Shown piece by piece: positions 30,001 through 36,000 of a DNA stretch of 64,000 nucleotides. Every line of letters starts with the position of its first letter. Position 1 is the first letter of the stretch. The stretch lies in assembly GCA_963675245.1 (NCBI GenBank), contig OY775910.1:960001-1024000 (forward strand), written 5' to 3'. Position numbers: made by a program. Origin of the DNA: Acholeplasmataceae bacterium. Its GTDB lineage: Bacteria > Bacillota_I > Bacilli_A > Acholeplasmatales > Acholeplasmataceae.

Positions 30001-33000
30001 ACAGAAACAAAGACAATGGACAATTTCTCAATGAAAGGAAATGGTTATCAAAAAATGAAAAGTGAAATGTTAAAAGATTCAGATTTCTATTTTGACACAA
30101 AGCCAATTGGAGGTAACAAATGAGTCAGGTTTATATGCTGGCAAAACCAAATTGTCCAAATTGCCAAAAACTTAAAATGTTTTTAAAATTTGCTTTACAA
30201 GATAAATATAAAAATGATATACAAATCATTGATAAAGAAGAACATGCTGATCAATATGTTGACATGGTTAAAAAGTTTCAAGTATTATCAGTACCTGTAT
30301 TAATCCATGGGGATGATGTGTTGGTTCAAGTGGATCCATCTAAGGTAACAAACTTTTTAGAAAAATATATCGGTAAAAAATAAAAAAAAGCCTAGTGGCT
30401 TTTTTATTTTTAATATGGCAGGCCCAGCAGGATTTGAACCTACGGTGAGGGAGTCAAAGCCCCGATAGGTAGATTAAGCACTCAATGATGAGTGCTTTTT
30501 TGTTCTCATGGGCCTTAATCACAGCAAAGGGATATAAGACTTCTTTCCTCCCCCCCACAAAAAAAGAATTATTGTTCAGTTGCTGTGATTAAGGCTCACC
30601 TCTAGACTTTTTCTCACTATTGGTGAGTCAATAAAAAACGGCTAAAAAATGCGATTTGATAAGGCTCAATAGTTGGTTTCTTTGCCGTTACCATTCTGTT
30701 GAGTCGTATCAAGTCGCTTTTTGCTAAAAAGGAGTTTTATTATGGCTAAGAATGATAATACAAAATATTGGTGGATAAAATTGGAAACAAACTTTTTTTA
30801 TCAAAATGCAATTGACTTTTTAATGTCTCAAAAGAATGGAAGTAATTATGTTGTTTTATATCAAATGTTATGTTTGAATTCTGCGAATACACAAGGTCGA
30901 TTAGAGCAAAAAATAGGCGATATGATAGTCAAATATGATGTTGCCAAAATTCAACGCGACACAAAGTATTTTGATCTTGACACCATTAGAGTAGCTTTAG
31001 AATTATACAAAGGATTAGGGCTTGTTTATGAAGAAAAGGACGGTACACTATTAATCATAAATCATGATGAAATGGTTGGATATAAAACCGGTGGTGCAAT
31101 ACGAAAAGAACTTGCAAGAAAATCAAAGAGGGACAATCTAGGGACAAATGTCCCCAAGAGTATAGAGTTAAGAGATAAGAATAAAGATATTAAAGATAGA
31201 GATTTAATAACACCCCCTAAATCCCCCAAGGGATATGTGAGTGATAATAAACTTAAAGAAAATATCTCTATTCAATCTCAATTTGATTTATTTTGGAAAG
31301 AATATCCAAAACACATAAATAAGCAAGCTTCTTATGAGCAATTTAGAAGTATGAAGTTAGATAATGGTATGTTAACTACGCTAATAGAGAATCTCAATAA
31401 ACAAAAAAAGTCTATTGAGTGGTCGCGTGAACAAGGTAGATTTATACCTTCGCCGCAAAAATATTTAAAAGGTAAGTTATGGGAAGATGAGCTAACTTAT
31501 CAAATAACAGTTGGTCAACTAGGTGTTGATGAAGAAATAGAACGTCAAATGGATAATATATTCAAAAAACTACCATTTGGCAAAGGGGCATGAAAATGGG
31601 AAATGATGACATAAAAATTGGAAAAGTTGTGACTCAAAAAGAAACTAATCGAGAAGCTAGAATATATGACATTGATAAAAGTATTAATTATGTGTTTTTG
31701 CTTGTCAACATTGGTTATCAAAATAATGAAGTTGCGACAGTTCAAATAAAAGAATTCTTCGATTATTATGAAACGAGGTCATGATATGTTTGGAAAAGAA
31801 AAAAAGCATACTTTAAGAACGAAAGTAATTACAGTTATTCATTCTGAAATTGTTGGTTTTAATAAAAAAGGTTTAGCAATTACAAAACCTCGAAAACGAA
31901 TGTATACTTTTTATGGCTCATCATTTAAAGATTTAAGGCTAAAGATAATCGCATTTAAAATTGATAATTATTTGAAATATGACACACGATTAAATGCCAA
32001 TACTGAGTTCAAAAGAGATGTGCGTTGTTTAGGTAAGAAGAGCAATGTAAAAGTAATGTTTTCATATGATTTTCAAGATAGGTACAACGCTATTAACTAT
32101 TTGTTATCAAAATATAATATTTCAGATAATCAAAGTATCGAGAAAAAAGATATCAAAAATAAAATTATCAAAGAAATCAATTTCGAATCACAAGGAAATG
32201 TTGATTTAGATTTACTGCAGATTGTTAGAATCGTGTATAAGTGTTTTGACTTCGATAAGCACAAAACAAAGGGGTTTTTGATGTCAAAAGATGGTGGATA
32301 TACACCGAGAGAAATAACACATGCGTTCAATAAATTAAGTAAAGAGGTAACAATATGATTTCAATGAATATAATGAATATCAATAATCAAATCAAGTCTT
32401 TATTAAGCCATATAAATATTTATTCTTTAAAACGTGAAAAAGCGTTTGAAATCGTTCGTGATTCCATTAGAGATGACATGGGAAAGATCTCAAGATTTGG
32501 AGCAGTGCGCACATATAGATTAGCTTTTGAATACTTTCAAAATGAACCAATAACAGATTGCTATATGCTTTCAGAATTCGAAGGATACACGAGATCGGAT
32601 ATTAAACAAATAAAGTATCAAATGAATAGGAGAATAAAAGTGTTTTCTGAAAATGTGACAAGTCAACATCAAATTAATCAAATATTAAAAATTGTTGGTT
32701 GGGACTGAATAGTACAATATTAATAAATAGTTGATGTGCGTCGTAGAATATTTTATTATAAATATATGTTCATATTCCATATGAACTATATTATATAAAA
32801 CATCTCAATCCTATTTCATAATGTGATAAAATACATTTAAGGTGGGGTTGAGATGAAAAGAACTTATATTTATGAGTCAATTGACAAGAGAAAAGGTGAA
32901 ATTGATTTTTATTATGAACATCACTATTATTCATTTAAACATGTTATGAATAACCGTAAACGGATTTTAAAACTGATTGATTTAAAGTGTAATACCGACC

Positions 33001-36000
33001 ATGTTAAATGGGATAAAAACCCAACAGATGAGGAGATAGCGTTTATCCTAGATATGTCATCAATCAACTTATCTAGAGTTATCAATGGTAGAGTCTCACT
33101 TTCAGTTGATGTGTTATTAAAACTATCCTGGTTTTGTGATGTGTCAACGGATAAGATAATTGCTTTTGAAAAAGAATTGGGTCATATAATAAAAAATAGT
33201 GATTTAATTGATTTTGATATCCTCAAGGAGACTTGAGGTTTTTTTTATGTACATTAAATCTTAACATTGATGATAAAATAACAAAGTCAAAATTAAACAG
33301 ATTTAACGTGGCATATTAAACTAAAAGAAAATCAATTATAAAGGAGTGTCAACAATGCTATTCACAGATTTATTTAAGAATTATTTGGAGTATAGTTTAC
33401 TACACAAAGCAAGAGGAACTTATGATTACGAGAGAGCGAAGATAAATAGGCTTAATATCGTTTTGAACGATATGGGTGTGATTGATACCACTCGATTTGA
33501 CAGAAACGCTCTAAATCGCCTCATTTTATATCTTAAAACGAATATTAGTAATAAGACGATTAATAAATATTTACTAATTATGAAAAATGCTTATAAAATC
33601 AATGATCTTGACTTTGAATATCTACAAAAGTTTAAAAAATTAAGAGAGAATAAAGTTCACTTTGAAATTATTGACAAAAATGAACTTAAAAAAATAATTA
33701 ATTGGGCATTGAGATTAAAAAGCAATCAAGATAATAACTTAATGTATCAAACCATTATTTTTTTATTACTGGAAACGGGTGTTAGAGCAAATGAGCTAAT
33801 AAACATTGAAATAAAAAACATAGATTTAGAGAATAAGTCTATACTTTTAACCACTACGAAAACAAAAAAGAACAGACTTGTATTCTTTACAAATTTATCA
33901 AAAAAATATATTGTAGATATGATTGACTTGGGACCGAAGAATCGCAAGTTTTTGCTCTTTAATAGATTAAAAAAAAGACAAACGCTATTTAGAGATATTA
34001 AATATACGATTGATAAGATTAAGCACGAAACTAATATCATAAAATTGCACCCTCACATGTTTAGACATACATTCGCAACACTAGCTTATGAAAATGGTAT
34101 GGATGTCTTTGTTTTAAAAGAGTTATTAGGACATGAAAATATAGAAACAACAATGATTTATACTCACATTTCTGAAAATAGATTAAATCAAACATATAGG
34201 AAGGCATTTGAGAACGATATATTTTGAATAACTGTGTATAAGAGTACATTAAAGTACATTAAAGTGCAAAAAAATGCTTAAAAAAGTAAAAAAAATTGTA
34301 CTTTTCCACAATATTTTGTTATAATATGTATGTAAACTTTGTGGCTATGCACACAAAAAGAAAAAGAGGTTTTAGAGGAACCTCTTTTTTTTCCGAAACT
34401 TTCAATCATCAGTGCTGTGATTTAAACGGATTTAATTAAAATTATTTTGTATGTTTGGTCGGATCAACTAAAACATAAATCTGATTTGGCTTGGGTGTTG
34501 GAGGTACTTTGTTGCCTTTTATTAGGGTTACCTCGTTCTGAGATATACGACCGTTTGAAAAACCTATCGCATACTGTCCAGAAACATCCGTAATTTGACC
34601 ACTTTTTATTGTATGTTTTGTCATTTGCAAATTCCACCTTTCTTATAAAATTATTTATAAGCAAGATGACTGTAAACTTTGTGGCTATATACACAAAACC
34701 GTTTCGGAAATCAACAAATAATCATGTCTAAATCACAACAACATTATAACATAAATAAGGCGATTTGTCAATGTTGAGCTGATATTGTCAATACTCGTAT
34801 TAAAAATAAAAAAGTAGTAATAGTAATAATTTTCCAGATAAAAAAAGAACGAACATTTATTGCTCGTTCTTTTTATCATCATCTATTAAACCGAGTAAAT
34901 AATCTGCTGAACATTCAAGAACCTTAACAAGATGTCTTATTTGCTCTTCATTCAACCTGTAAACACCATTTTCATAGTTGGAAACATTGCTTTGTGGGAC
35001 ATCTAAAATCTTTGATATTTGAACTTGTGTCAAACCCTTTTTAATTCTTGCCTCTTTAAGTTTGTTACTCATATTAACACCACTCCTCATTTTAATGTTG
35101 ACTCCTGTATCGCTTTGAGCTATAATTAAGGTGTTAAGGAAATATTGCTTTAAGCGATATTCAACGGTTAGAGTGCTTAATCATGATGTCACTCGTTCAT
35201 ATTCAAACGGCTTGTATAATTAGTATGGCAGGCCCAACAGGATTTGAACCTGTGGTGAGGGAGTCAAAGTCCCTTGCCTTACCCCTTGGCTATGGGCCTG
35301 TATGGCTAAACAGGTGAATATACTTTTAAAAGGAGAGATATATTTTTAGTTCAGCATTTATGATTTTAGCATAATGTTAATCAAAACTCAACTATAAAAA
35401 GCGATAAAATAACTGTTAAGTTATATTACCCTAATTTCTAATGGATTTATTCATCTAAAATTACACTATAATATGTGATATGATGTATATCAAACATTTT
35501 TAGATAAATGGGTTTATAATAAAAATATGAAAGCGTTTTATATTTTTGTTAAAGGAGATATGAATAGTCGTGAAGATGACAGCGGTTATTAAAGACAAGA
35601 AAGATGTAGGATGCAAGGTCGTTGAGAAAGAAGTACCAGAAAAATTGGGGGAAAAAGATGTTTTAATCAAGGTTTTGGCGACCTCTATTTGTGGTACAGA
35701 TGTCCATATTTTTAAGTGGGATAAATGGAGCCAAGGTAGAGTGAAACCACCGAATATTATGGGACATGAATTTGCAGGTGAAGTCATAAAAATCGGTTCT
35801 GAAGTAACAAAAGTTAAAATCGGAGATATTGTATCTTCTGAAACACACATTGTATGTGGTGAATGTGAGTTCTGCAAAAGAGGAGAATACCACATATGTG
35901 AAAACACAAAAATTATCGGTGTAGATATTGATGGTTGTTTTGCTGAATATATTAGAATGCCTGAGTTTAATTTAATCGTGAACAACAACGGTATTGATCC

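What a model noticed while it worked through the whole genome (the two positions that open the first line are those of the whole stretch)
30410..35299. Capsid-less 4.9 kb satellite-like element in tRNA-Gln with an L2-type integrase, plasmavirus-type repressor and a replis [...]
A second integrated element, apart from the tRNA-Lys provirus, is bounded by a 54-bp repeat of the tRNA-Gln 3' end and carries a Rep, four small ORFs, an L2-like integrase, a YjzC-like ORF and a repressor 47-54% identical to the provirus repressors, but no virion gene: a PICI-like candidate satellite of plasmaviruses.
Evidence so far: att repeat 990410-990463 / 995220-995273, 91%; PHROG hits for Rep and integrase, none structural; integrase 33% to L2; GC 27-30%. 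A homologous 5.7 kb element (integrase 59%, repressor 69%, Rep 32%, no virion gene hit) with repeats sits in tRNA-Gln of G079.
(Added by a program. Inside this text positions count along the whole contig: contig position 960,001 is position 1 of the stretch shown here. "Call 12" and the like, gene names such as g00115 and contig names such as C1 are that model's own, and its searches are not shown. The text may have been shortened before it was handed on; [...] marks where a part breaks off. The agent that wrote the report below was given it as the finding of a first reader that could run no searches.)

Follow-up and report, generated by a model that had tools for sequence, protein, structure and literature searches.

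The report
Candidate satellites of budding Acholeplasma viruses
A 4.8-kb mobile element in a wall-less bacterium belongs to a small family that keeps the integrase, repressor switch and an origin-region signal of membrane-budding plasmaviruses but no virion genes, so it probably travels inside a helper virus's particles, which would make it a satellite of a virus that has no capsid.

Summary
Confirmed and extended. The 4,810-bp element sits in the anticodon loop of tRNA-Gln(TTG); a same-genus genome has the empty site, and attR equals that host's tRNA half (44/44), so the 91% repeat identity is a mark of horizontal arrival, not decay. Five distinct elements (4.7-6.8 kb) share the site, layout and one integrase clade (23 rows, SH-aLRT 100). 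None has a virion, terminase or relaxase hit; int, rep and cI show dN far below dS. New here: (1) two orphan ORFs are homologues of plasmavirus L2 ORF6, present in 5 of 5 elements; (2) 4 of 5 carry, at varying places, a TA palindrome of the kind lying in L2's ori1 (near-exact in 3, divergent in this one); (3) the rep promoter sits at the far end, and a segment that pairs with the rep-side terminator joins it only in the circle, a predicted excision-gated antiterminator (precedent: ICEKp1 int). It is not a PICI by core genes. Best reading: satellite of L2-type plasmaviruses (0.6). Excision, packaging and helper are unshown, and the resident provirus lacks ORF6 and the palindrome.

The parts
30410..30463 (-). 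attR: the host's displaced 3' half of tRNA-Gln(TTG); crossover core = anticodon loop 30453-30459
   Evidence: 44/44 identical to the tRNA of G024, G092 and G085; in 5 of 5 elements identity to the tRNA starts at the loop's 5' edge
30476..30502 (+). Intrinsic terminator T1 at the entrance of the rep operon
   Evidence: present in 5 of 5 elements, P(stem)=1.00 in the integrated context
30509..30741 (+). Structured rep leader: hairpin H2 (30509-30598), segment b (about 30621-30650), long hairpin H3 (about 30646-30724) just before the rep RBS; predicted attenuator
   Evidence: z -8.5; z -4.4 to -9.8 in three other elements; 7 compensatory pairs in 3 sequences, 1/500 shuffles; no Rfam family at gathering score
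30742..31593 (+). Rep, phage replisome-organiser initiator (283 aa from ATG); short repeat AGGGACAA x2 at 31129 and 31140 as candidate iterons
   Evidence: best phage hit a Faecalibacterium tailed phage, 47% over the N-terminal half
31590..31784 (+). o2, 64-aa orphan ORF, translationally coupled
   Evidence: no relative among 3,872 ORFs of the fetched loci
31768..32358 (+). o3, 196 aa; C-terminal L2-ORF6-family domain (residues 126-183)
   Evidence: virus-seeded HMM E 4e-8; family profile E 1.2e-13
32355..32708 (+). o4, 117 aa; L2-ORF6-family domain (residues 31-102), all-helical
   Evidence: virus-seeded HMM E 1.8e-16; model pLDDT 92; no clear fold match
32752..32797 (.). TA-rich palindrome, divergent form of the palindrome of L2-type viruses (candidate origin or packaging signal)
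   Evidence: 38/46 to viral copies L169 and L051; best of the whole genome against that 40-mer, 33 versus 28 (reference chosen after the match); not found by the mixed viral profile
32853..33236 (+). o5, 127-aa XRE-type HTH protein, followed by terminator 33221-33238
   Evidence: HTH_3 E 0.0016; 37% over 89 aa to a plasmavirus early gene of G106; terminator
33346..34227 (+). Tyrosine integrase of Xer-like size; catalytic R147 K172 H237 R240 H263 Y272 intact
   Evidence: clade
34361..34771 (-). Cargo unit: YjzC-like ORF 34442-34624 with its own 12/12 promoter (34771-34743) and terminator (34389-34361); 36-bp direct repeats at 34323 and 34663
   Evidence: the slot holds unrelated cargo in the other four elements
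34857..35072 (-). cI-type repressor (the ORF caller starts it at 35090)
35098..35161 (+). Promoter P_R (TTGACT-17-TATAAT, 35098-35126), divergent from cI and pointing out towards att, with two palindromic operators (35108-35123, 35140-35161)
   Evidence: conserved in 5 of 5; operator sequence changes with the repressor recognition helix in L171
35171..35182 (+). Segment A, 12-nt complement of the 5' arm of T1 (30472-30483); predicted antiterminator, on the same transcript only after circularisation
35220..35299 (-). attL with reconstituted tRNA-Gln(TTG); its 3' half is element-borne, with pair-keeping T-stem changes

Best explanation
A member of a lineage of satellites of L2-type plasmaviruses. 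Shown from sequence: it entered tRNA-Gln(TTG) by crossover in the anticodon loop, keeps an intact integrase, Rep and repressor, and has no virion gene. Inferred mechanism: while integrated, cI holds P_R off; P_R and rep lie at opposite ends; T1 stops read-through into rep. After induction and excision P_R reads across attP, segment A pairs with the 5' arm of T1, and the transcript enters a second attenuator (H2/b/H3) that meters Rep. Rep, a tailed-phage-type initiator, copies the circle with host replisome proteins. When an L2-type plasmavirus is active in the cell, the circle is taken into budding enveloped particles by way of the shared TA palindrome. The ORF6-like proteins o3/o4 act on the helper's early programme or on that site. 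The packaging step and the ORF6 role are the least supported steps.
For: Empty site and host-identical attR. Five elements, same site and layout, no virion hit at E<=0.05 with 8 virion queries. One integrase clade, 23 rows, SH-aLRT 100, stem 0.73. dN far below dS for int, rep, cI, e.g. int G077/L161 0.14 versus 4.7. ORF6 domain in 5 of 5 elements; of 27 non-element loci 25 have the gene beside a tRNA-type att fragment. TA palindrome in 4 of 5 elements at different places and orientations and in 17 of 24 virus locus rows, inside L2's annotated ori1; G077 copy 48/50 to a G078 provirus. Same promoter-att-terminator layout in L2-type viruses. P(T1) 1.00 integrated versus 0.00-0.14 in 4 of 5 circles, 0.61 in L164. 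No relaxase or conjugation hit in the ORFs scanned. Both carriers among 172 genomes also hold a plasmavirus virion gene, which 17 of 172 do. Virions vary in size and hold 1-3 genomes (PMC12662186).
Against: Helper dependence and packaging were not tested, and no gene with a known hijacking function was found. The resident provirus lacks ORF6 and the palindrome. This element's palindrome has a changed core and a viral profile misses it; L171 has none. The 19-mer also occurs at 3 host intergenic sites among 9 in 172 genomes, and the reversed control gave 8, so it may be a host-factor site or origin part rather than a packaging signal. Co-occurrence rests on two genomes of provirus-rich genera (3 of 10, 6 of 38). 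Nesting of the integrase among viral ones is not shown (AU p 0.085). Segment A could be a DNA inverted repeat for a recombination protein; in L171 its exact match is only 7 nt (25/200 shuffles). Rep is of tailed-phage type.
Confidence: 0.6

Rival explanations
1. An autonomous, plasmavirus-derived integrative replicon with no dedicated helper. It excises and replicates by itself and spreads now and then by membrane vesicles, cell fusion, transformation or unspecific packaging. ORF6 and the palindrome serve its own excision or replication, and it may persist by interfering with plasmaviruses.
For: It has its own Rep, integrase and switch. The palindrome lies in an annotated origin in L2. ORF6 sits next to att like a directionality factor or Cro. 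Acholeplasma vesicles carry DNA (PMC13375369 passages). Element divergence roughly follows host-gene divergence among the five loci, which fits long host association.
Against: An element with a Rep unrelated to the viral initiators has no clear need for a near-exact viral origin-region palindrome at four different positions. Arrival in this lineage looks recent.
Confidence: 0.27
2. A PICI-like satellite of a tailed Acholeplasma phage that only borrowed plasmavirus integration and switch parts.
For: Rep is of tailed Bacillota phage type; similar Reps occur in G067 and G071 with no plasmavirus hit in the 3-kb loci fetched. Three elements carry an HNH gene.
Against: No terminase, capsid or portal hit. 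The HNH is of NUMOD4/HNH_3 homing type. The only conserved unknown gene and the shared non-coding DNA point to plasmaviruses.
Confidence: 0.08
3. A decayed plasmavirus provirus that lost its virion block in place.
For: Gene order equals the viral order minus the virion block. Capsid-less remnants with other integrases are common in the family: G085, G024, G019, G038, G061.
Against: No Rep hit was seen in those remnants and several are broken, whereas all five clade members with context keep intact int, rep, cI, ORF6 domain, promoter and leader under purifying selection. Their Rep type was found in no plasmavirus locus fetched. attR equals the current host allele.
Confidence: 0.05

Closest known systems
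Plasmaviruses (Acholeplasma virus L2, NC_001447) and related tRNA-integrated proviruses
   Same: Xer-size tyrosine integrase (34%), tRNA anticodon-loop att, small opposite-strand repressor, outward promoter split from the early operon by att, ORF6 family, TA palindrome, one further early gene (o5).
   Different: No virion or envelope genes; own integrase clade; tailed-phage-type Rep as first gene of this element instead of ORF6; a 280-nt structured leader; extended or doubled ORF6 domains; 4.7-6.8 kb against about 12 kb.
PICI / SaPI (core components per PMC10085698, passages seen)
   Same: Integrase, regulator, replication gene, cargo slot, no structural or lysis genes.
   Different: No small terminase, capsid-morphogenesis or primase hit; smaller than the 9.5-kb median; the presumed helper has no capsid.
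P4-like satellites
   Same: Works alike by analogy (recalled, not from a call): tRNA integration, RNA-structure control ahead of the replication gene, and a doubled homologue of a helper early protein (delta versus Ogr; here ORF6 domains in tandem in L161 and L171, o3+o4 here).
   Different: No psu, sid, delta, epsilon or alpha homologue; no Rfam match to a known leader or CI-type RNA.
RS1 / pDolos, satellites of chronically released filamentous phages (PMC11389934 passages; pDolos search listing)
   Same: Satellite of a non-lytic virus and, for RS1, built from the helper's own module minus morphogenesis genes (recalled).
   Different: Those helpers are ssDNA inoviruses with rolling-circle replication; here the presumed helper is an enveloped dsDNA virus and Rep is a replisome-organiser initiator.
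ICEKp1 state-dependent int switch (PMC13023037, abstract and section 23 read)
   Same: A 3'-end promoter plus a 15-bp end segment relieve a terminator-like leader once the ends are ligated.
   Different: There it drives the integrase of a conjugative element; here it is predicted to gate the replication operon, with element-specific complementary extensions.

Membership tests
PICI | Integrase | tested here: met
   PF00589, catalytic residues intact
PICI | Regulation module (AlpA, MerR or Stl type) | tested here: inconclusive
   An XRE/HTH_3 repressor is present; the SatelliteFinder profiles were not run
PICI | Primase-replicase module | tested here: inconclusive
   Replisome-organiser initiator, no primase or helicase domain hit
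PICI | Small terminase | tested here: not met
   No TerS hit in the 8 ORFs (Pfam, PHROGs, NCBIfam) or in the ORFs scanned from the other four elements (the G077 repressor touches PF10668 only through its HTH, below cut-off)
PICI | Capsid-morphogenesis gene | tested here: not met
Plasmaviridae (virus) | Envelope/virion genes homologous to L2 ORF1, 2, 3, 12, 14 or to the resident provirus's three large virion genes | tested here: not met
   No tblastn hit at E<=0.05 inside any of 5 elements; no transmembrane ORF in this element
Plasmaviridae (virus) | L2-type integrase inserting in tRNA genes | tested here: met
Phage satellite (functional class) | Mobile, site-specifically integrated element without virion genes | tested here: met
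   empty site in G024, five elements
Phage satellite (functional class) | Excision and replication on induction | tested here: inconclusive
   Only assembled contigs were available; they show no joint and cannot show rare forms
Phage satellite (functional class) | Packaging in and transfer by helper particles | not testable with these tools
   Only indirect: shared palindrome and ORF6 family
IME (conjugatively mobilised integrative element) | Relaxase or oriT | tested here: inconclusive
   No relaxase hit in the scanned ORFs; oriT not searched

The most novel reading that the evidence does not exclude
A family of satellites of an enveloped, capsid-less budding bacterial virus. It gains entry to virions through a copied viral cis-signal and its own ORF6-type adaptor (the role TerS plus pac has in PICIs), and its replication is switched on by an antiterminator that exists only once recombination joins the two ends.
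Probability: 0.35. Interest if true: 0.88.

Novelty: new variant of a known kind. Interest (0 to 1): 0.7.

Why it matters
The satellite families listed in the papers read hijack capsids, terminases or filamentous extrusion. Plasmaviruses have no capsid, and the ICTV profile names no genome-selection signal. A satellite shows which viral parts matter: here a roughly 20-bp palindrome in L2's ori1 region and the ORF6 family, both testable in the culturable L2 / Acholeplasma laidlawii system. The att-split promoter and antiterminator give a compact recombination-gated switch shared with the viruses. The element could also be a small integrating vector for Acholeplasmataceae.

Tried and rejected
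Reads: four Logan contig sets (at most 2 samples, 1 study, probably the source) gave flat depth and no attP or attB joint; contigs drop rare forms, so this is no evidence either way; no RNA holder listed. Complex prediction of integrase with the o4 domain: no verdict. Folds of o4: best Z 5.0 (HTH/sigma-4-like) for the domain and 6.2 (helical noise) for the full model; no Foldseek hit at E<=0.001; no PDB sequence hit; the Atlas TFIIB/cyclin lead scored 0.82 and is a weak lead only. IMG/VR holds no clade member in three scans; the palindrome gave one hit there, in a 180-kb contig, not followed up. A direct search with o3 found only itself. Rfam: only tRNA above the gathering score. PADLOC: no convincing defence hit for 10 ORFs. 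The reading of att mismatches as decay was rejected. Nesting in viral integrases: not shown. The automated switch parse worked for only 5 of 15 virus junctions (promoter found in 8 of 15); in those 5 the terminator still wins at equilibrium. The L2 origin-mapping paper was not held. Literature searches for plasmavirus or Acholeplasma satellites, L2 miniviruses and attP antiterminators found no description of this element; subscription papers and bioRxiv supplements were not searchable. Look-ups of earlier scan notes by sequence and by words gave nothing.
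Full report
OBSERVATION. The element is real at the stated place. The repeats 30410-30463 and 35220-35273 agree at 49 of 54 bases, 4,810 bp apart; the right copy is part of tRNA-Gln(TTG). Genes: rep, o2, o3, o4, o5, int on the plus strand; a YjzC-like ORF and a repressor on the minus strand. Family scans give a replisome-organiser Rep, a tyrosine integrase with all six catalytic residues, two HTH proteins and no structural hit. The host is placed in Acholeplasmataceae from the titles of related loci.

IT ARRIVED, IT DID NOT DECAY. Same-genus genome G024 has the empty site nrdF-nrdH-terminator-tRNA-Gln-tRNA-His. Of 8 same-genus tRNA-Gln loci compared, three (G024, G092, G085) match the attR copy at 44/44 and the attL copy at 41/44; the other five match attR better than attL too. 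The three differences keep the T-stem paired. So attR is the host's displaced half, the working tRNA now ends in an element-borne half, and the crossover lies in the anticodon loop, where identity begins in 5 of 5 elements.

A LINEAGE. A protein search gave 21 integrases at 56% or more, then a gap to 44%. With DNA context there are five distinct elements: this one, G077 (same element in L081, L163), L161 (same as L162), L164 and L171. They are 4,664-6,790 bp, all in tRNA-Gln(TTG), all ordered attR, rep operon, int, inverted cargo, repressor, attL. None has a hit to 8 virion queries at E<=0.05. In an 84-row tree they fall in one clade of 23 rows (SH-aLRT 100, stem 0.73; quick search); the other 18 rows lack context. 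Whether the clade nests among viral integrases or is their sister is open (AU p 0.085). dN is far below dS wherever dS is defined. The clade is rare: 2 of 172 family genomes. Both also carry a plasmavirus virion gene, as 17 of 172 do; two genomes are too few to weigh much. Three elements carry their own tRNA-Gln(CTG) between attL and repressor, in hosts where insertion separates the host copy from the tRNA row.

LINKS TO PLASMAVIRUSES. A profile built from six short viral proteins found o4 (E 1.8e-16), the C-terminal part of o3 (4e-8), one or two domains in each other element, and L2 ORF6 (1.2e-6). The family has 136 representatives and occurs in 23 of 172 genomes; in 25 of 27 non-element loci it sits beside a tRNA-type att fragment. 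Element versions are N-terminally extended or doubled. Its fold is all-helical with no clear match. o5 is 37% identical to a plasmavirus early gene. Rep is foreign to plasmaviruses: PF09681 passes cut-off in 4 of 172 genomes, and its best phage match is a tailed Faecalibacterium phage. PMC11389934 (passages) notes for plasmids that new hitchers acquire new initiators.

A SHARED NON-CODING SITE. Elements and viruses share a TA palindrome. In L2 it lies at 3712-3735, inside the annotated ori1. A loose definition finds it in 17 of 24 virus locus rows, 4 of 5 elements, and 13 other places in this 1.63-Mb genome. G077's copy is 48/50 to a G078 provirus, L161's 28/30 and L164's 30/32 to others, at different positions and orientations. 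The copy here (32752-32797) is divergent: 38/46 to two viral copies and the genome's best match to that 40-mer (33 versus 28), but the reference was picked after the match and a mixed viral profile misses it. The 19-mer with up to one mismatch gave 9 sites in 172 genomes: 5 proviral, 1 element, 3 host intergenic; the reversed control, itself TA-rich, gave 8. Origin part, host-factor site and packaging signal all remain possible. The resident tRNA-Lys provirus is of Rep_trans type and lacks both ORF6 and the palindrome, so it is probably not the cognate helper; G077's provirus has both.

THE SWITCH. An 11/12 promoter at 35098-35126 diverges from the repressor and points out of the element; its -35 and -10 boxes are invariant in 5 of 5. 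Two palindromic operators overlap it. Four elements share the helix QSNVSNYE and the operator, while L171 differs in both. At the other end terminator T1 guards rep. Segment 35171-35182 is complementary to T1's 5' arm, with element-specific extensions; exact complements are 12, 17, 17, 11 nt (0/200 shuffles each) and 7 nt in L171 (25/200). In folded circle transcripts P(T1) falls from 1.00 to 0.09, 0.00, 0.00, 0.61 and 0.14, and the nascent transcript pairs A with the arm at 1.00 in all five. L2-type viruses have the same promoter-att-terminator order before ORF6. In 5 of 15 junctions the parse was complete, and the upstream segment paired with the arm better than 193-200 of 200 shuffles, though the terminator still won at equilibrium. 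A like device is shown for int of ICEKp1 (PMC13023037, abstract and section 23). A DNA-site role for the inverted repeat is not excluded. After T1 comes a leader with z -8.5, G-U pairs and 7 compensatory changes in three sequences (few and related sequences). A segment b can pair with the last hairpin, with a matched change in G077. No Rfam family fits.

HOW IT MOST LIKELY WORKS. Shown: site, boundaries, gene set, selection, shared parts. Inferred from established knowledge: cI repression, host-replisome replication from iterons in rep. Inferred from folding: excision-gated antitermination. Conjecture: uptake into budding particles by the palindrome and ORF6-type proteins. Plasmavirus particles have no regular capsid and hold one to three genomes (PMC12662186, whole text). 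That L2 variants package small circles is recalled and was not found in the library.

COMPARISON AND NOVELTY. Against the five PICI core parts (PMC10085698, passages) terminase and capsid genes are missing, so it is not filed as a PICI. It is not a plasmavirus either. It works like a reductive satellite of the RS1 kind. Passages of two Mollicutes reviews contain no 'satellite' (PMC13375369, PMC7466169), and eight searches found no such element; closed journals and preprint supplements were not seen. PMC3694055 and PMC10865867 were seen as abstracts only and describe different att-linked switches.

VERDICT. A new, coherent family of capsid-less plasmavirus-related elements; satellite reading 0.6; interest 0.7.

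Noticed in passing
L004 (L2, NC_001447) 5015-5431: L2 has an unannotated minus-strand repressor (40% to this cI, E 2.7e-9) with a divergent promoter at 5281 and a tRNA-3'-like stretch at about 5395-5431, best matching tRNA-Val(GAC), just before ORF6. The closest proviruses sit in tRNA-Val(GAC). The annotated putative attP at 5029-5053 and the statement that all ORFs are on one strand may need revision.
   Followed up: partly
G000:C1:121853-139230: The resident provirus pairs L2-like virion genes with a Rep_trans initiator and a 439-aa P-loop-motif protein; G051 has the same type. It looks like a rolling-circle plasmavirus variant, with GmrSD and methylase cargo.
   Followed up: partly
   Followed up: partly
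window 35570-37793: Two genes resembling threonine dehydrogenase and 2-amino-3-ketobutyrate ligase (names recalled, not scanned) lie between tRNA-His and tRNA-Gln here; G024 has the two tRNAs adjacent, so this is a second gain or loss beside the element.
   Followed up: no
L163:11850-11923; L161:13259-13332; L164:11999-12072: Three relatives carry a full tRNA-Gln(CTG) of their own next to attL, differing from the host copy left beyond attR.
   Followed up: partly
window 34323-34771: The YjzC-like cargo has a perfect extended -10 promoter and its own terminator, and is bracketed by 36-bp direct repeats; role unknown.
   Followed up: no
L329 (G061:C1:984143-987498); L330 (G085:C22:80-4673); L046 (G024:C1, tRNA-Leu): Other small capsid-less units at tRNA genes with different or broken integrases and no Rep hit, one with a duplicated 5' half of tRNA-Gln.
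   Followed up: partly
L036/L037 (G020:C1:418000-450000): A plasmavirus provirus present as an exact tandem repeat with a period of about 12.9 kb.
   Followed up: no
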